Of a stretch of DNA of 53,929 bases, positions 3,460-47,637 are shown piece by piece (position 1 is the first letter of the stretch; each line of letters begins with the position of its first letter). The stretch is from contig CAUYUJ010000282.1 of NCBI GenBank assembly GCA_963575745.1, positions 62,001 to 115,929 of the forward strand. Direction: 5' to 3'. The notes beneath the pieces were generated by a model. It was not told the origin of the DNA, did not search any database, and was given only the letters and a program-made list of their open reading frames with translations. The stretch comes from Prorocentrum cordatum (Eukaryota). Both the position numbers and the translations under genes were made by a program.

Positions 3460-6106
3460 CTGCGACTTGACGCTCAAGGCGCCCCTGTCCGCCGCCGACC
3501 GCACCAGCATCCACCAGATCGCCGGCGAGGTCCGCGGTGCGGCTTCGACTTGTGGGAAAGAGCTCTTGGGGGTATTGGCAGAGCGGAAGAAGCTCAAGCC
3601 GATCAAGCTCCCACTCTGGAAGGAGCTGGGCGCTGCCGCTCTCTCCCTTCTCCGCGCCTCCGCTCCTCTCGGCCATCAGGAGGTCCTCCTCGCGCAGTGG
3701 TCTTGCATCCTCGACAACGGCAGCAACAACGACAGCGAGGGCGATGTGGCTGTGTCCCGCCGTATCTCCGAGCTCTCGGAGCAGGGTGACGAGATCTCAG
3801 GGCGTGCGGCCTGACAGCTGGACAACATTCGGTGGCTTGCACCCCAAAAGATGCTGGTGCTCGCGCCCGGCTCCTGGCATCGCTCCTGCGGCGAGCGGAC
3901 CCGGCCAGGCGCCCATCCAGTTTGCTGATGGTGGCGCCCCTCCCGCCCTCTCACGGCATGAAGGACGTTGTGGGCGTCACGGACCTGTGGTCGCACCCGT
4001 TCCTCGGAGACAATTGGGCGTCCGTGGTCTGGTCGCAGCGTTTCTGCTCGCAGCCCTTGGAGCTGATACCGCCTGGCCGGAATCAGCCACGGCACGTCCA
4101 GATGGGCCTTGCGCTCTTCGGTATCTCGATGGACATGCCGCGCCAGATGCCGCGCGTGGTCGAGGCCTTGACGCCCTTGTTCATGATCGAATCCTCCATT
4201 ATCGCGACGTTCGATATGCCCTCGGACTACCTCCCGAACCCCCCCCCCCCCGTTAGCGGACCCGCGCTTGGAGATCCTCGCGGTGCGCAAGCCCCGACGC
4301 AGTCCGAGTAGCTCGCAGGGCGCTCCGAGGATTTGCTTGGATTTGGTTTTCCCCGCGCAGTGCGCCGAGCTGGGCGCCATCGCCATCCTGAGCCGCATCC
4401 GCGCTTCGCTTCTGCCGTCAACTGCGCACTTCGCGCTGGGCACAATCTACGACAACAGGGAAGCCATGATCTTAGAGTTCACCCTCCCAGACTGCATCCC
4501 GCGCTTCCGGCCCCTATGCGTGCAGTTGGTATTCCTCTCGCGCACCAAGGCGCTCGTCTTGCCACGCGCTGCTTCGGGCACCTGGGGGAGTGCGATGGAT
4601 CAAGTTTTCAAGCACGACCCCGAGGTCTCCGCCTCCCGTTTTCGCTGCCGTCCGTCGGCCTACGGCGGCCGCCCCGCGGCGCCCCCCTCTGCGACCGCCG
4701 CGGCGCTGGCGGCCACCCGTCGGGCGGCACAGGCAGGAGAAGGCATCGGGGACATGGCGGAGATCGCTATCAAGGGCGAATTGGGCGATTGCGATGCCCA
4801 TGGATCAAGTGACGCCGCAGTTCGGCGCGGTGCTCCAGGAGGCCGTCGAGGCACATGGGCTGCGCCCTGGGCAGTACTTCCCCCTCCAGGCGCGCGACTT
4901 CTACGCCCCGCCTGGACGTGCCCGCGCCCGTCTGCGGGACCGGGAAGAGGTGCGCAAGTTGCGCGCGGGGCTGCACTGGCAGATTATCAGGGTCGGCAGT
5001 GACCAGGCCCAGGTGGAGGTCCTGAGCGACGCGCTCAATGCGGTGCGCGGGACGGGAAACGGGGCAGGGGCGTGGATCTAGTCCAGCCCACCCACGCTCC
5101 GACGATTATGGGGGCATCTCCCAGCTGGAACGCTGGGGCGCAAGTAGATGCATATCCTTGGACGGGGCCCCGCTGGCTCATCGAGGTCGCATTCTCCCTC
5201 CGCGTGGCAGCCGCCGCGCCGAGCGAACGAGGCCCGCCTGATGTGACTTCTCCTGGTCCGCGTGCGTCCACATTGAGTTTCTCGAGGTGTTCGAATTTGT
5301 TGCATGTTATCGACGGGTTTTCTGTTCCTCCTGATCGGCCCCTGCCTCCGCTTCCTTGTCTTCTTCCCTGCTGCGACGCCTGGCAGCGCTATCTGGGCTG
5401 TCCAGGAAACGACGTCCCGCTCGCCATGTATTATTTCCTTCGGGTCCGCCGGGCTCTCGGGGCCTTCGCGATCGCCGCAGCCGGGCCTCTGCTGAAAGCC
5501 ACCCCGCCGGCGCCCGCGGCTAGCTCCACGCGGCGGCTCGGACAGTTCAGGGGGGCCCTTTCGGTGGCCCTGTGGAACGCGAGAGCTTTCTTCGCGGTCG
5601 CGCAGGGCTGGCAGGAGGTCAAGGTTTCGCACGCGGGCTCGCTCCTTAACCGCGCGCAGGTGGTCATGGCCACGGAGGCTCACGGAACAACGGGCGCCCG
5701 CGACATCTGGCGCCCCCCCCCGGCGCCTCGTCGCGGTGGTCGGCGGGCGCTACGACCGCCCGCGCGTGGGTCCGCATCATCGCCCAGGACGCGTTGCCCC
5801 AGGAGTCCGACCCGCGCCCCGCGTGGAAGATTGGCCCTTCCAGGCAGGGCCGCCAAACTGGAGTTGCGCGGCCCGGAGGGGGGCTTGGAATTGATCGTGG
5901 CTTACTTCCCGACTGGCGCGGAGCTCACGGAGCATGATTTCCACGGCTTCTCGGCTGCCGAGATCGAGCGCCCCCCCTCGTTCCACGGCATTTGCGCTCG
6001 TCTTCGCGCGCGGCTCTCAAGGGCACTCGCTCCGCGATTCTCGTCGCTGACGGCTTTAGGCCGCGACTTCAGCTGCGTTGCAGATTCTGTCGATCGCATC
6101 CCCACT
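3460..6106 (+). mobile_element. Degenerate LINE: ORF1 (~3460-5080, stops/frameshifts) and N-terminal AP-endonuclease part of ORF2 (~5426-6106), 3'-truncated
   Basis: ORF2 shows APE motifs in order: ALWNA, MATEAHG (QETH-like), PGRAAKLELRGPEGGLELIVAYFPTG, LGRDFSCV..DR (decayed GGDFN). Upstream frames join into a long globular-looking ORF1. Coding similarity stops at the inverted repeat at 6107. Confidence 0.75.
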
Positions 6107-6281
6107 ACCCTGACATCCTCCATCATGATTTTTTCAATCCGCTCCAGACGGATTGAAAAGAGTAGCACGGATTGAAATCGAATGGATGGATTGATAATTT
6201 TCAAAGCGGATTGATTTTTCTAAAGGTGGATTGATTTTTGGTAGCAGCGGATTGATTTTTGTCCCAACGGATTGATTTTTG
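6107..6281 (+). repeat. Left TIR (6107-6159) and subterminal GGATTGA(TTTTT) array
   Basis: TCAATCC at 6134, then GGATTGA at 6150, 6169, 6188, 6208, 6228, 6249, 6269. Confidence 0.85.
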
Positions 6282-6399
6282 CACATTTTGGCTTCTTAAC
6301 TTATAATTATGTTAGCTTCCTTACAAGTGGTATTGATACCCGAGGCGTTGATATTTTAGCAAGCAGCCATGTAATACAGTGACATCTCTACAACCTTGA

Positions 6400-7985
6400 C
6401 AGGAAACCGACGGATTGCGGGCCGAGTTTTCTATTGTGGACAGTACAGAACTCGCCACGCGCGCGCGCGGACGCGCGCGCGCGGAGATTGTCGACCATCT
6501 ATAGGAGGCCGACATTCGAACCCGCCACGCGCGCGCGCGCGCGGACGCGCGCGCGCGCGCGTGCGGAGTTCTGTATTGGCGACAATAGAAAAGCCAGTAT
6601 GTAATTCCAAAAACTAAATTTGAAATTTCTGGGGCCCTTTAAGGAGGCCGACGGAGTGGCCGACTTCTCTATTGTGAACAATACATTCGAACTCGCCACG
6701 CGCGCGCGCGCGCGGACGCGCGCGCGCGCGCGCGGACGCGCGCGCGCGCGTGCGGAGTTCTGTATTGTCGACACTAGAAAAGCCAGCATGTAATTCAAAA
6801 AACTGAATTTGAATTTTCTGTGGCCCTTTAAGGAGACCGACGGAGTGGCAGACTTTTCTATTGTGAACAATATCATTCGAACTCGCCACGCGCGCGCGCG
6901 CGGACGCGCGGACGCGCGCGCGCGCGCGTGCGGAGTTCTGTATTGTCGACAATAGAAAAGCCAGTATGTAATTCCAAAAACTAAATTTGAAATTTCTGGG
7001 GCCCTTTAAGGAGGCCGACGGAGTGGCCGACTTCTCTATTGTGAACAATACATTCGAACTCGCCACGCGCGCGCGCGCGCGGACGCGCGGCGCGCGCGCG
7101 GAGTTCTGTATTGTCGACACTAGAAAAGCCAGTATGTAATTCCAAAAACTACATTTGAATTTTCTGGGGCCCTCTAAGGAGGCCGACGGAGTGGCCGACT
7201 TCTTTATTGTGAACAATACATTCGAACTCGCCACGCGCGCGCGCGCGCGCGGACGCGCGCGCGCGCGCGGACGCGCGCGCGCGCGGAGTTTGTATTGTCG
7301 ACAATAGAAAAGCCAGTATGTAATTCCAAAAACTAAATTTGAAATTTCTGGGGCCCTTTAAGGAGGCCGACGGAGTGGCCGACTTCTCTATTGTGAACAA
7401 TACATTCGAACCCGCCACGCGCGCGCGCGGACGCGCGCGCGCGCGCGTGCGGGTTCTGTATTGTCGATAATAGAAAAACCAGTATGTAATTCCAAAAACT
7501 AAATTTGAATTTTCTGGGGCCCTTTAAGGAGGCCGACGGAGTGACAGACTTTTCTATTGTGAACAATGCGTTCGAACTCGCCACGCGCGCGCGCGCGGAC
7601 GCGCGCGCGCGCGTGCGGAGTTCTGCATTGTTGACAACACAAACGCTACCGTGCAATTTCAAAAACTGAATTTGAAATTTCTGTGGCCCTTTAAAGAGGC
7701 CGACGTACGCGCGCTGGTGAGACGTGTCACCCGCGCGCGTGCGCGCGCGTGGGGATCGAGTTCTGTCGACACATACTATAAAAAGTTGCCACGCAATTCC
7801 ACAAACTGAAGTCAAACTTTCTGTGCAACCGGATAGAAGACCGACGGAAGCGCGCGGGTGACACGTGTCACCCGCGCGCGCTCGCGCGTGGGGAGCTCTG
7901 TATTGTCCACAATAGAAAAGACGCCGTGCACTTCCAAAAACTGGCTCTGAAATTTCTGTGGGCCTTAAAGGAGACCGACGGACGC
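6400..7985. repeat. Tandem array of ~9 units (mostly 166-189 bp), each containing a long hairpin with a (CG)n core
   Basis: CCGACG anchor at ~6407, 6647, 6836, 7014, 7182, 7366, 7532, 7699, 7841, 7974; arms CTATTGTGAACAATACA..GAACTC..CACGCG / CGCGTG..GAGTTC TGTATTGTCGACAATAG are complementary. Confidence 0.92.
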
Positions 7986-8652: not shown

Positions 8653-9527
8653 ATGGCCCCCCCCAAAGAGAAAGGCGCGAAAGCTTCGAGTGTCGACGAG
8701 GGCATGGCACGGCACATGCCGACTGCAAAAGTGGCGACGTCGATCTTGGCCCAGGCCAGCTGGGGATCGGGTAGAGAGGGGCGACCGTGAGTTATATATT
8801 GGACAAACGTGGGCATAGGAGACGGAGGTACAGAGGGGGAGAAAAAAGGAAGGACATAGGGAGGATGGATAGAACAATTTGGGAAGGAGGAGGGAGGATG
8901 ATGGAGGGGGCGGGGGAGGGGGTGATGGAATGAATAGGGGGCGGTCACGGAGGAATTATGCGCAGGAACGAAGGGGGGGGGGAGGTGGATGTGGAGCGAG
9001 CGAATCACCCCCCCTACCGCAGGCGATGCTGAACACCCCTGAAGAAGGTGATCCATGGCCTATTCTTCTAGGATCGATCGGGGACGGGAGGGAGCGATGA
9101 TGACGAGGGTGGGCATGTAATTGGCACTGCTGGTGAACGCGCTCCCACTCTTCTCAGATGTCAGTGTCCGTTCTGGTCCATGGGGTGCGCTGGCTGCTGC
9201 CTCACTTGAGCCGTTGGGCCGTTAACGTAATTACTCACGCCACCGCCGTCATTATCCTCGCCGTCGTGATCGTCGATCGTCGTCGTCATCGTCACCATCG
9301 TCGTCGGCATCGGCGTTAGCATAACCAGCAGCGTCAACATCCTCATCAGAAGTACCAGCATCTTCGTCATTATCAGCATCATCAGCATCACCGTTCTCAT
9401 ATCGCCAGGAAGGCCATCGTCATCATCACCGCCATCATCTTAGGGAGTGGTTAGGTGGATAATGTGGGAGAGAGGGAGAAAGAGATGAAAGGGGAGAGAG
9501 AGAGAGAAGTAGAGAGAGGGAGCGATA

Positions 9528-17064: not shown

Positions 17065-17595
17065 GCGTTATCTTGCGTTATATCGTGCGTGTCGTATTTT
17101 CGTGGCTTTATAAGGTAAATTCACCGTGCGTTTATCTTGCGTTTATCGTGCGTTTATCTTGCGTTTATCGTGCGTTTATATTGCGTTTATCGTGCGTTTA
17201 TCTTGCGTTTATCGTGCGTTTGTCTTGCGTTTATCGTGCGTTTATCGTGCGTTTATCTTGCGTTTATCGTGCGTTTATCGTGCGTTTATCGTGCGTTTAT
17301 CGTGCGTTTATCTTGCGTTTATCGTGCGTTTATCGTGCGTTTATCGTGCGTTTATCTTGCGTTTATCGTGCGTCTATCGTGCGTTTATCGTGCGTTTATC
17401 TTGCGTTTATCGTGCGTTTATCTTGCGTTTATCGTGCGTTTATCGTGCGTTTATCGTGCGTTTACCTTGCGTTTATCGTGCGTTTATCGTGCGTTTATCT
17501 TGCGTTTATCGTGCGTTTATCGTGCGTTTCGATTTTCGTGAGTTTATCTTGCGTTTATTGTGCGTTTATCGTGCGTTTATCGTGCGTTTCGTTTT
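17065..17595. repeat. 11-bp minisatellite (TTTATC[G/T]TGCG)n running into the gap
   Basis: More than 40 tandem copies directly visible. Confidence 0.95.
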
Positions 17596-17695
17596 NNNNN
17601 NNNNNNNNNNNNNNNNNNNNNNNNNNNNNNNNNNNNNNNNNNNNNNNNNNNNNNNNNNNNNNNNNNNNNNNNNNNNNNNNNNNNNNNNNNNNNNN
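17596..17695. other. Assembly gap (100 N)
   Basis: Run of exactly 100 N, usually a placeholder for unknown length. Confidence 0.99.
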
Positions 17696-23626: not shown

Positions 23627-24625
23627 ACGAGGGGGCGCAGCGTGCACGCACGGACGTCCCAGACATCCCACGATAAGTTTATTTTGTTTCAATGCGTTGG
23701 ATCCCGACGTTGTTATCGAATGCCCTGGGGCCCGAGCGGCCTATCGAGGAAACGTCGCCACGGTTGAACATCACATCGTCGGATGTCTGGGGGGTGCTCT
23801 GGGAAGGGCGTTGGAGATCGTGGCATGCGAGGTGCTCTGGCATGTTCTGCGATGGAGATCGCTGGCAGGAGACAGCCTTGAGGGGGACGAAGGCGGGGCA
23901 GCACAATGCATCAGTTTGGGCCGCACTCACGTGCGGTGGACGGCGGCTCGTCGGTACCGACGCTCGAGCCGCGCGCGCAGACGAAAGAGACGCGCGTGGG
24001 CACACTCACGGCATGATCATGCGTCGCTGTTTCCAGGAATCAGCCCACGTTATCAGAGAGATCCTGGTCGTGTCCCTCCCTCCTTCCATCCTTCCCCTAC
24101 CACCTGTCGGAGTTTGCATGTTGCATGCAGGGGTCCCGTACGTTGATTTCTTCCTTCGATTCCCTCTGCCCCCGACTGCCTCTACAAGGGGCCTGGTTGT
24201 TCTGGACGTGCTTGTGCATGGTGGTTTTGTCTGTATGTATGTTCTTCGGCGAACGTTTGCGATGAGGAGGGTCAGGCTCTCACAGGCAGGCCAAGTTACC
24301 CTGGAGAAGCATGCGAGTTATCACCAGGCATTGCAGCTTGGACCAGGTTGGATGATGATGAGGAGGATCAGGATGAGGACGAGGGGAGGAGGAGGAGGAG
24401 GGGGCAGGATCTTACCTCGCAGGCAAACCCCAATTCCCCTGGAGATGCGTGCGGTCACTAGGCTTGGCATTGAAGCTTGAGCCAAGCTGGAGGAGGATCA
24501 GGAGGGGGAGGGGGAGGAGGGGCCAGGATCAGGTCAGGGGATCCCCGCACATGCATGTCGTCTGCCCTTTTCTGGCCCAGGATCCAAGGGTCACGTGTCC
24601 TTTCGCGCCTCGAGCTCCGCGCCGA

Positions 24626-26732
24626 ATGGCGGCTCGTGCGTCTGCGGAGGAGCTGGCTGTTTTGGATGACCCCACCCCCGAACGGTTTCAAGATAACGGT
24701 GAAGGGCTGCGGGCTTACTTGATGTCGCAATACAAACAGGGCCTGATGAGCGCAACAGTGGTCAACAGTATAGCTTTCTACGCTGAGCAAGGAGGGTGCC
24801 GAGGCATGGGTGATATCTCGCACCCCCCATCGAGCACACATCATGCGGAACACTTGCGCCGAGCTGTGAATGCAAGAGCAAAGTCATCGTTCTACCTCCC
24901 TCGGATCCCTGTCTGGTGCAAGGCAACGGAGACAAGAACATTCATAGAATTCCAGATGAATTTACCTTCGGAGCAGTTTGCCGCGGCGTGGCAGTCGAAC
25001 CCGTCGGAGTTCGACCCGAGTTTGTTTCCAGAGGAAAGCTTGCCACCCACCTTCAAGACCAACGAAGTGTACCTACAGAATCCAGGAAAAACGGTTCCCT
25101 TTGGCTTCTTCTCGGATGCATTCCCGATTACTAAAACAGACGGCTGTTTTGCAATGTACGTTTCCAACTGCCTGACTGGTACCAGGTATGTAGCATGTGT
25201 TCTGCGCAAGTCAGACATGTGCAAGTGCGGTTGCCGCGGCAACTGCACCATGGGATCTATTTTACGAGTTCTGGCATGGGATTTTAATACACTTGCATCA
25301 GGAGTATTGCCTGCCTTCGACCACGAAGGCATGCCTTTCAGTGACGAGACAAGGGCAAACAGGCGCCATTTCCCGATTGCGTCAGGCTGGTGCTGTGCTT
25401 TAACGGAGATGCGAGCAGACTTACTCGAGATCATCGAGAGGCTTGGCGTGAAATCGCATTCCAACATCATCAACCCGTGCTTCCTTTGCGGGTGCCACAG
25501 GAGCGCCCTGCATCACTACCCTGCAACCATCGAGACCATGAATTGGATCCCCCGAGATGCTAGTGTTTACGAGATAATGAAGACCAGGTCGTTAGTTACG
25601 CGGACTGTAATGGACAGCGGGCAGCTGCGCCGATTGCTTCGGCGCATGCACTTCCACGACGAGCTTGGAGGGCACGGGCTACACAAGGACTTCCCTGAGC
25701 TGAATCTTCATAAAGGTTGCAGGATAATAGAGCACGGCCCAGTTGTTGATATCCATGCCCTTCGGCAAATCTCGTCGCCTGCAGATTTTACCTTTTTCGA
25801 CACGAATATTAATATGGGATTAAATCTCATATGTCCCTTGCTATTAGTCAAAGGGTTTACGCTTGAATCGATTCACTTAGACGCCATGCACATACTCGAC
25901 CTGGGAATTACCCAACACCTGCTAGGACGGATTCTATTGAGGATGGTGCAATTGAACTTCGCGAGGTCACGGGCTTTCCGTGCAGAGGGCAGGCGCAGGG
26001 ACAATCTCGCACATCTGCGGAGGCATCGGGGTGACCAATGCGGGGACACGTGCTCGAAGGGAGTGGCGTCTCGAGGGTTATATTAATTTAATAAGTTAGT
26101 TAACGTGTATTAACTTAAGCTTCGGCACCCGACCCCCCTCGAGGCGCATTCTTTTTTAGCATTAAACATGTGGTTCCCGCTGCCCCCATCCCCCATTAAG
26201 GCGGTTGAAGACGTACTACACGACGAACCGCGTGATATTCGGAGGACGCCGCGGTCGACTGAGCCGCATTGGAAAGATCTCCCTGTCCCATTTCAAGAAA
26301 GGGCGCCTTAAAGCAAAGGCAGCCGAGTCCAGGCATCTCCTCCCCCTCGGCAAGCTGCTCCTGAGCGAGAATGCACACCTCCTCCGTGGGGCGGACCAGT
26401 ACCTCGTGCAAGCCTGTGATGCATTGAACAAGGAGCACGATGTGATGAACGAGGAGCCCAGAATTATGTCGCCACTGGGCATCCAACGCCTCCAGAGGGC
26501 CATGCTGAGGTTCCTCTCGTATTGGCAGGCCTATGGCGGCCACGTGGTGTTCAAACACCACGCGGCCGTTCATCTTGTGCAGAACGTCGGCAAGCACGGA
26601 AACCCAAGGTGGTATTGGTGCTATGCCGACGAACAAGAAAATAGGTTAATGGCCAGGATCGCCCAGAGCGTCCATGGCGGCGCCACTTTCTACGAGACGT
26701 TTCTAAGGAAAGTTCTCCCCGAGAGGTGTTGA
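24626..26732 (+). CDS. CACTA/EnSpm (CMC superfamily)-like DDE transposase, 642 aa, join(24626..26022,26201..26732)
   Basis: Ordered motifs PFGFFSDA (D1), CKCGCRGNC, EMRAD (D2), PCFLC, LDAMHILDLG, KAKAAESRH, FKHHAAVH, GNPRWYWCYADE (E). One 178-bp GC-AG intron with AG|G at both ends joins ORFs 24449-26086 and 26205-26732 in frame without stops. Confidence 0.82.
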
Positions 26733-28104: not shown

Positions 28105-28230
28105 ACGCGGATTGGTTTCACTAACCAAGGATTGATTTTGAGTGAATGGATTGATTTTTTTCAAGCGCTTGATTTATTTTCAATCCGTTCAAAAGCGGAT
28201 TGAAAAAATCATGACCTAGGATGTCGGGGT
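28105..28230 (-). repeat. Right subterminal GGATTGA array and right TIR (28177-28230)
   Basis: GGATTG at 28109, 28129, 28148, 28197 and TCAATCC at 28180; reverse complement matches 6107-6159. Confidence 0.85.
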
Positions 28231-35678: not shown

Positions 35679-36301
35679 CCCTACCTAGGAGTTGGAACCC
35701 CTAGGAAAGCAGCATTTGTAGTAACAGTAACGCTAAGCTAACGCTAAGCTACTGCTAAGCTAAAGCTAAGCTAAAGCTAAGCTAAAGCTAAGCTAAAGCT
35801 AAGCCACAGCTAAGCTAAAGCTAAGCTAAAGCTAAACTAAAGCTAAGCTCAAGCTAATCCACAGCTAAGCTAAAGCTAAGCTGAAGCTAAGCTAAAGCTA
35901 AACTAAAGCTAAAGTGGAGCAACAGCTAAGCTACAGCTAAGCTAAAGCTAAGCTAAAACTAAGCTGAAGCTAAGCTACAGCTAAGCTACAGCTAAGCTAA
36001 CGCTAAGCTAAAGCTAAGCTAAAGCTAAGCTGCAGCTAAGCTCAAGCTAAGCTCAAGCTGAGCTAAAGCTAAGCTAAATCTAAGCTAAGCTCTAAACGAA
36101 AAGCTAAGCGAAACGCTAAGCGAAACGCTAAAGCTAAGCTACAGCTAAGCTAAAGCTAAAGCTAAAGCTAAAGCTAAAGCTCCCAGGGGACTGGGGGGAA
36201 CCGCTCCCAGGGGACTGGGGGAACCGCCCGGGGCGCTTTCCACTGCCCGGCCCCTTTAAGCTAAGAGAGTAAGAACCCTTCTAGGCAGAGCCTAGGTAGG
36301 G
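35679..36301. mobile_element. 623-bp MITE-like element with 11-bp TIRs enclosing a (GCTAAAGCTAA)n array
   Basis: CCCTACCTAGG at 35679 and CCTAGGTAGGG ending 36301; internal 11-bp repeat at ~35732-36180 and a duplicated CTCCCAGGGGACTGGGGG(G)AACCG. Confidence 0.65.
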
Positions 36302-36469: not shown

Positions 36470-38092
36470 TTCATATGTTTCGGGGCCCCATAGGGAGCTC
36501 CTCCGATGGTCCCAGTGAGACCGCCCGCATGCGTCACGCACCACCCAGTACAGCGCTTCGCGGCCCCACAGGGAGATCAACCGACGGCCCCAGTGGGACC
36601 GTCCGCATGCGTCGCGCACCACCCAGCACAGCGTTTCGTGGCCCCATAAGGAGATCCACCGAAGGTCCCAGCAGCACCGCCTGCATGCGTCACGCACCAC
36701 CCCGTAAAGCGTTTCGTGGCCCCATAGGGAGTTCCACCGAAGGTCCCAATGAGACCGCCCGCATGCGCCACGCACGCCCAATACAGCCATTCGTAGCTCC
36801 ATAGGGAGCTCGACCGAAAGCCCCAGTGGCACCGCCCGCATGCGTCACGCACCACCCAGTACAGCGTTTCGTGGCTCTATATAGAGAGCTACACCGAAGG
36901 CCCCAATGGGACCGCCCGCATGCGTAACGGACCACACAGTACAGCGCTTCGTGGCCTCATGCGGAGCTCCACCGACGGCCCCAGTGGGAGCGCCCGCATG
37001 CGCTACGCACCACCCAGTACAACGCTTCGTGGCCCCATGCGGAGATCCACCGACGGCGCCAGCGCCACCGCCCGCATGCGTCACGCACCAACCAGCGCAA
37101 CGATTCGTGACCCTATAGAGAGCCCCACCGAAGGTCCCAATGTGACCACCCGCATGCGCCACGCACCACCCAGTACAAGGTCTCGTGGCCCATGGGGAGC
37201 TCTACAGACGGCCTTCGGGGCACCGCCCGCACGCGCCAAGCGCCACCCAGCACAGCGTTCCGTGTCCCCAAATAGGGGAACCCACCGACGGACCCAGTGG
37301 GGCCGCCCGCATGCGCCACGCATCACCCATTACAACGCTTCGTGGCACCACAGGGAGATCAACCGACGGCCCCAGTGGGACCGCCCGCATGCGCCCCGCA
37401 CGCCCAGCACAGCGTTTCGTGGCCCCACAAGGGGATCAACCGAAGGTCCAACTATCACCGCCCGCTTGCGTTCGCACACCCAGTGCAACGCTTCGTGGCC
37501 CACAGGGAGCCCCACCGAAGGTCCCAGTAGCACGGCCTGCGTGCGTCGCCCCCTCCCAGTACAGCGTTTCGTGGCCCCACAGGGAGCCCCACCGAAAGTC
37601 CCAATGGGACCGCCCTCAGGCGTCCCGCACACCAAGTACAGCGCGTCGAACGTGGCCCCACAGGGAGCCCCACCGAAGGTCCCAGTGGGACCGCCCGCAC
37701 GCGTCACACACCACCCAGTACAGCGTTTCGCGGCTCCATAGGGAGCTCCACCGATTCGTGGCCCCATGAGAGCCCCATCGAATGCCCCAGTGGTAAAGTA
37801 CACATGCGTTCCCCGCACACAGCACAACGTTTCGTGGCCCCATAGAGGGCTCCGCCGAAGGCCCCAGCGGCAAAGTCCGCATGCGCCCCCCCCCCCACCC
37901 AATACAACGTCTCGTGGCACATAAGGAGCTCCAACGAATGTCCCACGGGCAAAGTCCGCATGCGTCCCCCCCACCCACCACAACGTTTCGTGGCCCACGG
38001 GGGGCTCAACCGAATGCCCCAATGGCAAACTTCGCATGCGTCTCCCCCGCCCAGTGCAATGCTTCGTGGCCCCATAGGGAGCCCCACCGAAT
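36470..38092. repeat. ~78-bp satellite, about 20 diverged copies
   Basis: Unit TTCGTGGCCCCATAGGGAGCTCCACCGAAGGTCCCAGTGGGACCGCCCGCATGCGTCACGCACCACCCAGTACAGCG; the 26-aa periodicity in overlapping ORFs reflects it. Confidence 0.92.
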
Positions 38093-38760: not shown

Positions 38761-39168
38761 GGATACAGACCCTGTTCCGACCGGGCCCGGTTCCGACCCG
38801 CCCGGTTCCGACCCGGCCCGGTTCCGATCCGCCCGGTTCCGACCAGGCCCGGTTCCGACCAGGCCCGGTTCCGACCTGGCCCGGTTCCGATCCGCCCGGT
38901 TCCGATCCGCCCGGTTCTGACCCGGCCCGGTTCCGCCGCCCGAGGGGGCGCGCAGTCCCGGCGCGTGAGGCTTTCGCGCGGCGGCAGAGGGCCGGCCGGA
39001 ACAGGGCCGGCGGAACAGGGCCTGGTCGGAACAGGGCCTGGTCGGAACAGGGCTGGCAGCAACAGGGCTGGGTCGGAACAGGGCCGGCCGGAACAGGGCC
39101 GGTCGGAACAGCGAGGGGCCGGAACAGGGCCGGTCGGAACAGGGCCGTCGGAAGAGGGCTTGTCGGAT
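38761..39168. repeat. Left foldback end: ~15-bp GGTTCCGACC array, spacer, inverted GGTCGGAACAGGG array
   Basis: Forward units 38770-38936, inverted units 38988-39168. Confidence 0.9.
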
Positions 39169-43102: not shown

Positions 43103-43512
43103 CCCTAACCCTAAACCCTAAACCCTAACCCGAAGCCTCACCCTGACCCTAAACCCTAACCCTAACCCTAGACCTAAGCCCTAAACCCTAACCCTAACCC
43201 TAACCCGAATACCTAAACCCTAACCCTAACCCTAAACCCTAAACCTTAACCTAAACCATAACCCTAGCCCTAAACCCTAAACCCTAACCCTAACCCTAAA
43301 CCTAACCCTAAACCCTAAACCCTAACCCTAACCCTGACCCTAACCTAACCCTAAACCCTAAACCCTGACCCTAACCTAACCCAAAACCCCGAACCCGAAA
43401 CCGTGAACCCTGAACCCTGAACCCTGAACCCTGAACCCTAACCCCAACCCTAACCCGAAACCGTAACCCTAACCCGAACCCTAACCCTAATCCTAAACCC
43501 TAACCCTAACCG

Positions 43513-43546
<34 letters not shown>

Positions 43547-43914
43547 ACCTAAACCCTTAACCCTAACCCCAACCCGAAACCCTAAACCCTAAACCCAACC
43601 CCTAACCCGAACCCTAAACCCTAACCCTAACCCTAACCTAACCCTAACCCTAACCCTTCCCCTGAACCCTAAACCCTTACCCGAACCCTAACCCTGACCC
43701 TAAACCCTAACCCTAACCCTATGCCCTATGCCCTAAACCCTAACCCTAACCCGAAACCCTAAACCCTAAACCCTGAACCCTAACCCTAAACCCTAAACCC
43801 TAAGCTAAACCATAACCCCAGACCTAAACCCTAAACCCTAACCCGAACCCTAAACCTAACCCTAAACCTGAACCCAAACCCGAACCCTAACCCTGAACCC
43901 TAAACCGTAACCCA

Positions 43915-43953
<39 letters not shown>

Positions 43954-44035
43954 CCCTAAACCTAAACCCTAAACCCGAACCCTTACCCTAAACCCTAAAC
44001 CCTATCCCTAACCCTAACCCGAACCCTTAACCCTA

Positions 44036-44068
<33 letters not shown>

Positions 44069-45367
44069 TAAACCTAACCCGAAACCCTCAACCCTAACCC
44101 CAACCCTAAACCCTAAAGCCTAAACCCTACCCCTAATCCTAACCCTAAACCCTAACCCTAACCCGAACCCTAACCGTAAACCCTAAACCCGAACCCGAAC
44201 CCTGACCCTGACCCTGAACCCTAACCCTAACCCTAACCCTAACCCTAACCCTAAACCCTAAACCCTAACCCTAACCCCAACCCTAACCCTAAACCCTAAA
44301 CCCTAACCCTACCCCTAACCGTAAACCCTAAACCCTAACCTAAACCTTAACCCTAACCCTAAACCCTAAACCCTAACCCTAAACCTAAACCTAACCCTAA
44401 CCCTAAACCCGAACCCTAACCCTAAACCCGAAACCCGAAACCCGAACCCAAATCCAAACCCTAAACCCTAACCCTAACCCTAACCCTAACCCTAACCCTA
44501 ACCCTAACCCTAAACCCTAAACCCAAACCCTGACCCTAACCGTAACCCTAACCCTAAACCCTAAACCCTGACCCTAACCTAACCCAAAACCCCAAACCCT
44601 AACCCGAAACCCTGAACCCTGAACCCTGAACCCTAAACCTAACCCTAACCCTAAACCGTAACCCTAACCCGAACCCTAACCCTAAACCCGAAACCCTAAC
44701 CCTAATCCTAACCCGAACCCGTAAACCCTAACCCTAATAAACCTAGCCCGAAGCCCTCAACCCCAACCCTAAACCCTAAACCCTAAAGCCTAAACCCTAC
44801 CCCTAATCCTAACCCTAAACCCGAACCCTCAGCCGAACCCTAACCCGAACCCTAACCGTAAACCCTAAACCCTAACCCGAACCCTGACCCTGGACCCTAA
44901 CCCTAACCCTAACCCTAACCCTAACCCTAAACCCTAAACCCTAAACCCTAACCCTAACCCTAACCCTTAACCCTAAACCCGACCCCTAACCCTAAACCCT
45001 AAACCCTAACCTAAACCTTAACCCTAACCCTAAACCCGAAACCCCAACCCTAACCCTAAACCCAACCCTAAACCTGAACCCAAACCCGAACCCTAACCCT
45101 AAACCCTAAACCCTAAACCCTAAAACAGACCCTAACCCTTAAACCCTAACCCTAACCCTAACCCTAAACCCTAAACCCTAAACCCTAAACCCTAACCCTA
45201 ACCCTGACCCTAACCTAACCCTAAACCCTAAACCCTGACCCTAACCTAACCCAAAACCCCAAACCCTAACCCTAACCCGAAACCGTGAACCCTGAACCCA
45301 AACCCTAACCCTAACCCGAAACCATAACCCTAATCCGAACCCTAACCCTAAACCCTAACCCAAACCG

Positions 45368-45401
<34 letters not shown>

Positions 45402-45450
45402 CCCTAAACCCTTAACCCTAACCCCAAACCTAAACCCTAAACCCTAAACC

Positions 45451-45482
<32 letters not shown>

Positions 45483-45793
45483 GAACCCTAACCCTAACCC
45501 TAACCCTAAACCCTAAACCCTAACCCGAAGCCTAACCCTGACCCTAAACCCTAACCCTAACCCGAACCCTAAGCCCTAAACCCTAACCCTAACCCGAAAC
45601 CCTAAACCCTAAACCCGAACCCTAAACCCTAAAACCTACCCCTAAACCCTAAACCCTACACCCTACACCCTAACCCTAAACCTAACCCTAAACCTGAACC
45701 CTAACCCTTAAACCCCAAACCCTAACCCTAAACCTAACCCTAAACCTGAACCCAAACCCGAACCCTAACCCTAAACCCTAAACCCTAAACCCA

Positions 45794-45832
<39 letters not shown>

Positions 45833-45875
45833 CCCTAAACCTAAACCCTAAACCCTAACCCTAACCCTGACCCTC

Positions 45876-45907
<32 letters not shown>

Positions 45908-46117
45908 CCCAACCCAAATACCCAAACCCTAACCCTAACCCTAACCCGAAACCGTGAACCCTGAACCCTAACCCTAACCCGAAACCGTAACCCTAACCCG
46001 AACCCTAACCCTAAACCGTAACCCTAACCCTAACCCTAACCCTACACCCTAACCCTAACCCTAACCCTAAAACCTTAACCCTAACCCCAACCCTAAACCC
46101 TAAACCCTAAAACCTAC

Positions 46118-46154
<37 letters not shown>

Positions 46155-46665
46155 CCCTAACCCTAAACCCTAAACCCTAAACCCTAAACCCTAACCCGGA
46201 GCCTAACCCTGACCCTAAACCCTGACCCCAACCCTAACCCTAAGCCTAAGCCTAAGCCCTAAACCCTAACCCTAACCCGAAACCCGAAACCCGAAACCCT
46301 AAACCCTAAACCCTTACCTAAACCATAACCCTAGCCCTAAACCCTAAACCCTAACCCTATACCTAAACCTAACCCTAAACCCTAAACCCTAACCCTAACC
46401 CTGACCCTAACCTAACCCTAAACCCTAAACCCTGACCCTAACCTAACCCAAAAACCCCAAACCCTAACCCTAACCCGAAACCGTGAACCCTGAACCCTAA
46501 CCCTAACCCTAGTCCTAACCCGAAACCCGAAACCGTAACCCTAACCCGAACCCTAACCCTAAACCCTAACCCTAACCGTAACCCTAACCCTAAACCCTAA
46601 CCCGAACCCTAACCCTAAACCCTTAACCCTAACCCCAACCCGAAACCCTAAACCCTAAACCCTAC

Positions 46666-46702
<37 letters not shown>

Positions 46703-47242
46703 CCCTAACCCTAACCCTAAACCCTAAACCCTAACCCGAAGCCTGACCCTGACCCTAAACCCTAACCCTAATCCTAACCCTAACCCTAACCCTAAGCCCC
46801 AAACCCTAACCCTAACCCTAAACCGTAACCCAAACCCTAACCCTAACCCTAAACCCTAAACCCTAACCTAAACCATAACCCCAGCCCTAAACCCTAAACC
46901 CTAACCCTAAACCTAACCCTAAACCTGAAACCCAAACCCGAACCCTAACCCTAAACCTTAAACCGTAACCCAAACCCTAACCCTAACCCTAAACCCTAAC
47001 CCCAACCCTAACCCTAACCCTAACCCTAAACCCTAAACCCTGACCCTAACCCGAACCCTAAACCCTAAACCCTAACCCAAACCCCAACTCTAATCCTAAA
47101 CCCTCACCCTGACCCTAACCCGAAACCCTGAACCCTAAACCGTAACCCTAACTTTAACCCTAACCCTAAACCCCAACCCTACCCCTAACCCCAAACCCTA
47201 AGCCTTAACCCTAACCCGAACCCTAAACCCTAACCCTAACCC
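43103..47242. repeat. ~4.1-kb interstitial telomere-like array of mixed CCCTAA/CCCTAAA with variants
   Basis: Directly visible; variants CCCGAA, CCCTGA, CCGTAA, CCTAA; non-telomeric sequence on both sides. Confidence 0.97.
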
Positions 47243-47259: not shown

Positions 47260-47637
47260 CCCCGCCCGGTTCCGACCCGCCCGGTTCCGACCAAGCCCGG
47301 TTCCGACCAGGCCCGGTTCCGCCCAGGCCCGTTTCCGACCAGGCCCGGTTCCGACCAGGCCCGGTTCCGACCCGCCCGGTTCCGACCAGGCCCTGTTCCG
47401 CCGGCCCTGTTCCGACCCGCCAAGAGAGCGTTCTCGCATGGGACATCGCGACGGCGGAACAGGGCCGGCCGGAACAGGGCCGGCGGAACAGGGCCGGCGG
47501 AACAGGGCCGGTCGGAACAGGGCCGGTCGGAACAGGGCCGGTCGGAACAGGGCCGGCGGGAACAGGGCCTGGTCGGAACAGGGCCGGCCGGAACAGGGCC
47601 GGCGGAACAGGGCCTGGTCGGAACAGGGCCTGTTCCC
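47260..47637. repeat. Right foldback end: GGTTCCGACC array, short spacer, inverted CGGAACAGGG array
   Basis: Forward units 47262-47420, inverted units 47454-47628. Confidence 0.9.

What the first reader, a model, noticed from the sequence alone, without database searches (positions are those of the whole stretch)
6400..7985. Array of ~100-120-nt hairpins tipped with variable (CG)n tracts
Seen: in each unit CTTCTCTATTGTGAACAATACA-TTC-GAACTC-GC-CACGCG... pairs with ...CGCGTG-CG-GAGTTC-TGTATTGTCGACAATAGAAAAG. Each arm holds its own palindrome (TATTGT-NN-ACAATA). Length variation falls mostly in the CG tract, which is interrupted by GGA, and units are linked by A/T-tract DNA. Known: (CG)n forms Z-DNA, and palindromes nested in direct repeats act as origins/enhancers in baculovirus hr regions. 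Inference: a cruciform/Z-DNA, protein-binding or hairpin-RNA module just inside the left end of the giant element.
Basis: partly seen in the sequence, partly recalled or inferred. Interest (0 to 1): 0.72.

Follow-up and report, generated by a model that had tools for sequence, protein, structure and literature searches.

The report
Transposon-borne palindromic CG-tract satellite
This is a real array of mirror-symmetric ~175-base repeats with CG runs, part of a repeat family found at many places in this dinoflagellate genome and carried inside several unrelated jumping elements; its hairpin shape shows no sign of being maintained, so it is likely passive cargo of a known kind.

Summary
6400-7985 is a tandem array with a 166-189 bp period. 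Six complete arm-(CG)n-arm units fold far better than shuffles (z -5.0 to -8.0), and length varies mainly in the CG tract. The array lies 290 bp inside the left terminal repeat of a 22-kb CMCT-type (CACTA/Plavaka-like) DNA transposon; 14 of 19 family end pairs show a 2-bp duplication. The genome is a dinoflagellate (DVNP genes).

The functional reading is weak. Across 135 hairpins there are 12 compensatory changes against 12.7 expected, and 544 pair-breaking ones. Arms diverge as fast as the linker. The family is genome-wide: 392 exact linker hits, two 25-unit arrays in an unrelated 19.8-kb element, and arrays in long inverted-repeat elements. Among sister transposons, 11 of 15 lack the unit, and others carry it with the left arm replaced. 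Only the window's own variant is confined to this subfamily.

Best reading: a modular satellite hitchhiking on mobile elements, with inherited symmetry. A Z-DNA or protein-binding role is untested. The scan has reported similar, not sequence-matched, arrays elsewhere in this genome.

The parts
6108..6160 (+). Left terminal inverted repeat of the host transposon (starts CCCTGACATCC)
   Evidence: Inverted match to 28177-28229; flanks diverge here among copies
6143..6290 (+). Subterminal ~20-bp repeats (CGGATTGATTTTT), CACTA-like
   Evidence: Family D9; TRF period 20
6400..6600 (.). Composite, truncated first unit(s): left arm, CG tract, deletion, CG tract, right arm
   Evidence: Sequence; module map
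6664..6781 (.). Hairpin unit 1, CG tract 52 bp
6853..6959 (.). Hairpin unit 2, CG tract 40 bp
7031..7127 (.). Hairpin unit 3, CG tract 34 bp
7199..7311 (.). Hairpin unit 4, CG tract 52 bp
7383..7477 (.). Hairpin unit 5, CG tract 30 bp; one paired change (GAACCC/GGGTTC)
7549..7643 (.). Hairpin unit 6, CG tract 30 bp; one paired change; decayed outer arm
6603..6655 (+). A/T-tract linker (one of nine), the module shared with genome-wide arrays
   Evidence: 392 exact genome hits of a 29-nt linker pattern, control 0
7655..7985 (.). Two units of the other type: linker, GGTGACACGTGTCACC palindrome, CG tract, right arm; no long hairpin
   Evidence: same type fills the slot in sister subfamilies
8653..8757 (+). 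Likely first exon of the element's first gene (MARH..TAK motif also in sister elements); inferred
   Evidence: Sequence
24377..26086 (+). Transposase-like ORF, main exon (D, D, CxxC)
26166..26732 (+). Transposase-like second exon (H-x3/4-H and final E); exon join inferred
28177..28229 (-). Right terminal inverted repeat (ends GATGTCGGGG)

Best explanation
The array is a local, homogenised variant of a genome-wide modular satellite, carried just inside the left end of a 22-kb CMCT-type DNA transposon, and it is likely passive cargo whose hairpin shape is inherited rather than selected. Shown: the family occurs in several unrelated mobile hosts; its modules (CG tract plus arm, A/T linker, GTGAC palindromes) appear in different combinations; arms mutate independently; many sister transposons lack it. 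Inferred mechanism: a 'CG tract + arm' module was once copied in inverted orientation across the self-complementary CG run (fold-back or template switch), which created the long palindrome. Slippage in the CG run changes unit length. Unequal exchange multiplies and homogenises units within each host. Ectopic exchange, sometimes at CG runs, moves arrays between hosts, and transposition disperses them.
For: No covariation: 12 double changes against 12.7 by permutation (p 0.65), 544 pair-breaking cells, and same-hairpin arm identity 0.792 against 0.794 permuted, in 135 hairpins from 11 arrays. Divergence from each array's consensus: left arm 7.8%, right arm 7.5%, linker 7.4%. Array consensuses carry 1-8 fixed arm mismatches, 5 in the window plus a 3-nt bulge. 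Genome-wide: 392 exact linker hits and 704 exact arm hits, controls 0. Summed contig depth in run X1 is 8.7 on the TIR and up to about 5500 on unit bins. Second host: a 19.8-kb element with different ends and a 5-bp duplication in 3 of 3 copies, holding two ~25-unit arrays. Third setting: arrays inside multi-kb inverted repeats at C4445, C15037, C16860. Dispensable: of 15 sister elements with a located left TIR, 11 had no unit hit and 4 had mostly the type without a left arm; states are scattered on the transposase tree. Units are more alike within arrays than between hosts (0.92 within the window, 0.77-0.85 to other hosts). Precedent: a 171-bp satellite inside CACTA elements (PMC8978399, section 10 read); the same array type across different elements and palindromes in monomers (PMC12628747, passages).
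Against: The slot between the left subterminal repeats and the first gene holds a unit of this family in subfamilies whose transposases are only 48-59% identical, and two others hold a different palindrome/CG satellite there; this could reflect a use. 1085 of 1106 arm-like sites keep a CG run on the inner side (background 23%). One array family (C536, L062, L097) has the same two changes in both arms, and two window units show a paired change, so some arm-to-arm copying occurs (the alignment missed one of the window pairs, so the count is 12 or 13). CpG sites are not hypermutated (2.65% against 4.04%). Z-DNA has been immunolocalised in dinoflagellate chromosomes (PMC2116181, abstract). The fold-back origin is inferred and has no direct test here.
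Confidence: 0.68

Rival explanations
1. The array is a facultative cis-acting module (promoter or enhancer, chromatin anchor, or supercoil sink). CG tracts would flip to Z-DNA or the palindromic arm core would bind a host or element protein, and unrelated transposons would keep it because it helps their expression.
For: Position about 670 bp upstream of the likely first gene, in a slot reused across subfamilies. Tight arm-CG coupling. 96 of 135 tracts have a pure alternating run of 12 bp or more; window runs are 14-18 bp. Z-DNA is seen in dinoflagellate chromosomes (PMC2116181, abstract).
Against: 11 of 15 sister elements lack it, including copies with intact duplications and open transposase frames. 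Arms diverge at the same overall rate as the linker, with no invariant core. Unit number and tract length vary freely among close copies.
Confidence: 0.17
2. The true unit is in the other register: a ~140-bp MITE-like element (arm-linker-arm, arms as terminal repeats) that inserts into CG runs and piles up head to tail. The 'hairpin' would then be only the junction of two neighbours.
For: Several arrays begin with CG plus right arm and end with left arm plus CG; a few arrays hold flipped linkers (L082, L083, L086).
Against: Only about 5 of the 16 array ends printed stop in the CG tract. No clean solo copy was found. No covariation in that register either (11 against 9.0, p 0.26). Many units have one arm only, with other palindromes or linkers. 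No autonomous partner with these ends was seen.
Confidence: 0.1
3. The units encode hairpin RNAs (small-RNA precursors) that regulate the element or the host.
For: Stable 100-120-nt stems.
Against: No covariation and no stem-specific constraint; no Rfam match at gathering score, best 41 bits against 75; the left arm is absent in orthologous slots.
Confidence: 0.05

Closest known systems
CACTA-like element Jozin of Chenopodium with a captured 171-bp satellite array (PMC8978399, section 10 and passages read)
   Same: Large CACTA-type element holding a tandem array of ~170-bp monomers near one end; the related satellite also occurs apart from the element.
   Different: Here the monomer is palindromic with a (CG)n centre, sits inside the left end, is shared with unrelated hosts, and the host is a dinoflagellate.
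Transposon-dispersed satellite arrays of bivalves (pearl/DTC84 MITEs, Helentrons; PMC5139131 and PMC12628747, passages read)
   Same: Short arrays inside mobile elements, the same array type in different elements, palindromes or microsatellite-like segments at some junctions.
   Different: The hosts here are 15-22-kb elements, and modules are exchanged between related satellites at CG tracts.
CMCT clade of DDE transposons (EnSpm/CACTA, Mirage, Chapaev, Transib, Plavaka, ESTA, Lanisha; PMC12730594, passages read), for the host element
   Same: TIRs, subterminal repeats, 2-bp duplication, D-D-E with C(2)C and H(3-4)H motifs.
   Different: Ends are CCC..GGG, not CA..TG, TGT..ACA or CATCA..TGATG; no Pfam match; a PDZ-like insertion is predicted.
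Baculovirus homologous regions (hr), recalled, no call
   Same: Imperfect palindromes embedded in direct repeats.
   Different: No viral context; eukaryotic transposon cargo; no evidence of origin or enhancer activity; hrs are not centred on (CG)n tracts (recalled).

Membership tests
Transposon-carried satellite-like array | Head-to-tail monomers of about 100-200 bp with homogenisation within arrays | tested here: met
Transposon-carried satellite-like array | Lies inside a mobile element and moves with it | tested here: met
   12 of 12 close copies carry it inside the TIR at different insertion sites
Transposon-carried satellite-like array | Same repeat family present outside this host | tested here: met
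Conserved structured RNA or selected hairpin | Compensatory changes above chance | tested here: not met
   12 against 12.7 expected
Conserved structured RNA or selected hairpin | Stem more conserved than flanks | tested here: not met
   7.8 and 7.5% against 7.4%
Conserved structured RNA or selected hairpin | Discrete transcripts | not testable with these tools
   no RNA holder listed
MITE | Solo copies with terminal repeats and a target duplication | tested here: inconclusive
   none seen among the fetched loci; no genome-wide scan was possible
Z-DNA or cruciform element | Alternating CG run long enough to flip | tested here: met
   pure runs of 14-18 bp in the window; the length threshold is recalled
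Z-DNA or cruciform element | Non-B structure in vivo with an effect | not testable with these tools
   needs probing
CMCT clade (host) | TIRs and 2-5 bp duplication | tested here: met
   2-bp duplication in 14 of 19 end pairs; the window's own pair (TA/TC) is among the 5 misses; no pair was found for 7 further loci
CMCT clade (host) | DDE with C(2)C and H(3-4)H between the second D and E | tested here: met
   Both D invariant and CxxC nearly so in 16 sequences; H-motif and E in 12 of 13 loci; residue roles assigned by motif only
CMCT clade (host) | 5'-CA..TG-3' ends (most members) | tested here: not met
   CCC..GGG
CMCT clade (host) | RAG1/Transib-like fold | tested here: inconclusive
   Model pLDDT 64.5; RAG1 Z 4.8, rmsd 5.3, 191 aligned; Foldseek none at E<=0.001
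Plavaka | PF18759 match and PlavakaA/B ends | tested here: not met
   No Pfam hit; ends differ; only an Atlas lead at 0.92, family on 65% of that cluster; one search was uninformative
Baculovirus hr | Viral origin or enhancer function | not testable with these tools
   the context is a eukaryotic transposon

The most novel reading that the evidence does not exclude
The 'CG tract + palindromic arm' module is a sequence source of the Z-DNA seen in dinoflagellate chromosomes. It works as a supercoil-sensitive switch or protein dock that unrelated giant transposons repeatedly recruit to the slot upstream of their first gene in nucleosome-poor chromatin.
Probability: 0.1. Interest if true: 0.65.

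Novelty: new member of a known kind. Interest (0 to 1): 0.25.

Why it matters
As read here, it is one more case of satellites spreading inside transposons, in a lineage whose repeats are poorly described. It also shows a mix-and-match module set shared by several hosts. Its practical value is a defined, clonable candidate for the Z-DNA reported in dinoflagellate chromosomes. Sister transposons with the hairpin type, the armless type and no array provide natural controls.

Tried and rejected
A hAT-like transposase ORF near the C21915 arrays (Atlas score 0.87, a lead only) first looked like a second host. It lies outside the shared 19.8-kb element and in only one of the compared loci, so it was rejected as host.

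Covariation was tested in three registers, none above chance. Rfam gave nothing at gathering score. Pfam gave nothing for the transposase or the array's open frame. The Plavaka family search rang nowhere, controls included. No PDB sequence match; Foldseek none at E<=0.001.

No RNA holder was listed, which is no evidence either way. Runs X3 and X4 had small shares and are mostly CG-run matches, so they were not used. The fuzzy-regex module map missed hits and was replaced.

The earlier-findings sequence look-up found no look-alike. The paper search for EnSpm + 2-bp TSD + CCC returned 0. Searches listed no paper describing this repeat in the titles and abstract starts seen; this is not proof that none exists. 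The Plavaka ends figure in the supplement of PMC12730594 was not read.

Full report
OBSERVATION. The stretch 6400-7985 is a tandem array. Nine A/T-tract linkers give periods of 189, 178, 168, 184, 166, 167, 140 and 135 bp. Six units are complete arm-(CG)n-arm palindromes that fold with z from -4.96 to -8.02 against dinucleotide shuffles. Their CG tracts are 30-52 bp, interrupted by GGAC, and account for the length differences. The first stretch is a truncated composite. The last two units lack the left arm and carry GGTGACACGTGTCACC instead.

HOST GENOME AND ELEMENT. The genome (G000, 4.1 Gb) has 29 DVNP matches over the Pfam cut-off, and the 14 control genomes have none, so it is a dinoflagellate. 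A self-comparison finds an inverted pair at 6108 and 28177-28229. Flanks of other copies diverge exactly at CCC..GGG. Of 19 end pairs examined, 14 show a 2-bp duplication. The window is one of the five misses, but C371 shares its left flank and has a matching TA on the right, so the window may join two copies across its N gap (inference). The ORF at 24377-26086 and a second exon at 26166-26732 carry D, D, CxxC, H-x3/4-H and E, conserved across relatives. This is the signature that Kojima 2025 gives for the CMCT clade (PMC12730594, passages). Pfam is silent, the Atlas gives a Plavaka lead, and the fold search gives only a weak RAG1 match (Z 4.8, rmsd 5.3, 191 aligned). The host works like a CACTA/CMCT element but is not filed as Plavaka. 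The transposase search returned 117 matches, a lower bound.

LINKAGE. All 12 close copies of the left end carry the array directly inside the subterminal repeats, with 3 to about 10 units. The window's left-arm variant has 10 exact hits on 6 contigs, all within those copies. The wider family is not confined. A 29-nt linker pattern has 392 exact hits and a 28-nt arm pattern 704, controls 0. In DNA run X1 the summed contig depth is 8.7 on the TIR and up to about 5500 on unit bins; this is not a copy number, but it points the same way. Run X2, under another organism label, also holds units. A 19.8-kb element with different, imperfectly inverted ends and 5-bp duplications in 3 of 3 copies carries two ~25-unit arrays. 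Six of the 21 contigs inspected from the first 100 listed hits (20, plus C181) show its upstream sequence; part of that output was cut. Other arrays lie in multi-kb inverted repeats or in contexts I did not classify.

SISTER ELEMENTS. I fetched the expected left-end region for 20 further transposase loci and re-used 2 earlier ones. Four of 22 had unit hits. Among the 15 where the left TIR was located, 11 lack the unit. Two of these hold a different palindrome/CG satellite in the same slot. The four positives carry mostly linker, GTGAC palindromes, CG tract and right arm, without the long hairpin. Hairpin-type arrays occur in subfamilies with 55-56% transposase identity (C14553, C1592). On the transposase tree the states are scattered: the armless-type pair is sister to a pair without array, and a hairpin carrier is sister to carriers of nothing or of another satellite (the window's own branch is long and unplaced). 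The array is therefore dispensable and exchangeable.

IS THE HAIRPIN MAINTAINED? I used 135 hairpins from 11 arrays (two hosts contribute two arrays each; near-identical copies were left out). Both arms changed to the same new pair 12 times against 12.7 in permutations, 544 cells broke a pair, and arms of one hairpin were no more alike than arms of different ones. The across-linker register gave 11 against 9.0 (p 0.26). Arms and linker diverge equally (7.8, 7.5, 7.4%). The window family has fixed five mismatches and a bulge. Against this, one array family has two changes shared by both arms, and two window units show a paired change. Occasional arm-to-arm copying is likely and needs no selection (template-switch correction of imperfect palindromes; recalled). 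CpG sites are not hypermutable (2.65% against 4.04%).

MODULES. Of 1106 distinct arm-like sites in the fetched loci, 1085 have a CG run on the inner side (background 23%). 713 have a partner arm nearby, 106 a GTGAC palindrome, and 287 something else. Related satellites join the same CG-plus-arm to other linkers. The invariant piece is CG plus one arm; the long hairpin is one arrangement among several.

MECHANISM. The most likely history (inferred) is an inverted copy of the arm across the self-complementary CG run, then slippage in the run, unequal exchange within hosts (identity 0.92 within the window array, 0.77-0.85 to other hosts), exchange between hosts, and dispersal by transposition. 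The rivals are a facultative cis element (0.17), a CG-targeting MITE read in the other register (0.10), and hairpin RNA (0.05).

KNOWN KINDS. Satellites inside CACTA elements (PMC8978399, section 10 and passages), arrays shared among elements, and palindromes in monomers (PMC12628747 and PMC5139131, passages) are described. Z-DNA was immunolocalised in dinoflagellate chromosomes (PMC2116181, abstract only), which keeps the Z-DNA idea testable but does not show it for this repeat. Earlier AI notes on this genome describe similar palindromic satellites and CMCT-type elements. The sequence look-up did not match them to this unit, and they are not counted as support.

VERDICT. Real, well bounded, a new member of a known kind; interest 0.25.

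Noticed in passing
window 17596-17695: A 100-N gap inside the element. The window's ends give no duplication (TA/TC), while C371 with the same left flank does (TA/TA). The two halves may come from different copies. C19860 and C669 likewise share a left flank but not a right one.
   Followed up: partly
window 24710-26023 (model residues 283-372): The predicted transposase model has a PDZ-like insertion (best Z 6.2, rmsd 3.7, 76 aligned), a middling match.
   Followed up: no
G000:C181, C2303, C21915 (L051-L060, L100-L108): A 19.8-kb, multi-copy element with imperfect inverted ends and 5-bp duplications, built largely of several satellites; no match to either transposase query.
   Followed up: partly
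L051:4456-6309 (-): hAT-like transposase ORF beside that element in C21915; the 32-kb region is bracketed by a 7.1-kb, 99.8% inverted repeat.
   Followed up: partly
window 36477-38092: A 78-bp satellite related (65-85%) to repeats inside the 19.8-kb element: a second shared satellite.
   Followed up: partly
window 43103-47242: A 4.1-kb interstitial telomere-like array mixing CCCTAA and CCCTAAA; a 15/16-bp inverted-repeat module lies beside it (47264-47630) and recurs at 38770-39167.
   Followed up: no
L044:850-2300, L045:880-2300: Sister transposons hold a different palindrome/CG satellite (GGGTGACCCA..TGGGTCACCC) in the same slot.
   Followed up: partly
window 5003-6107: The left flank looks like a decayed LINE endonuclease region (motifs recalled; no Pfam hit) into which the element inserted.
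   Followed up: no
L081 and L084, just beyond the arrays: Short stretches resembling the dinoflagellate spliced leader (motif recalled) next to array ends.
   Followed up: no
window 17125-17589 and 35728-36181: Two different 11-bp minisatellites (CGTGCGTTTAT; TAAAGCTAAGC), about 42 copies each.
   Followed up: no
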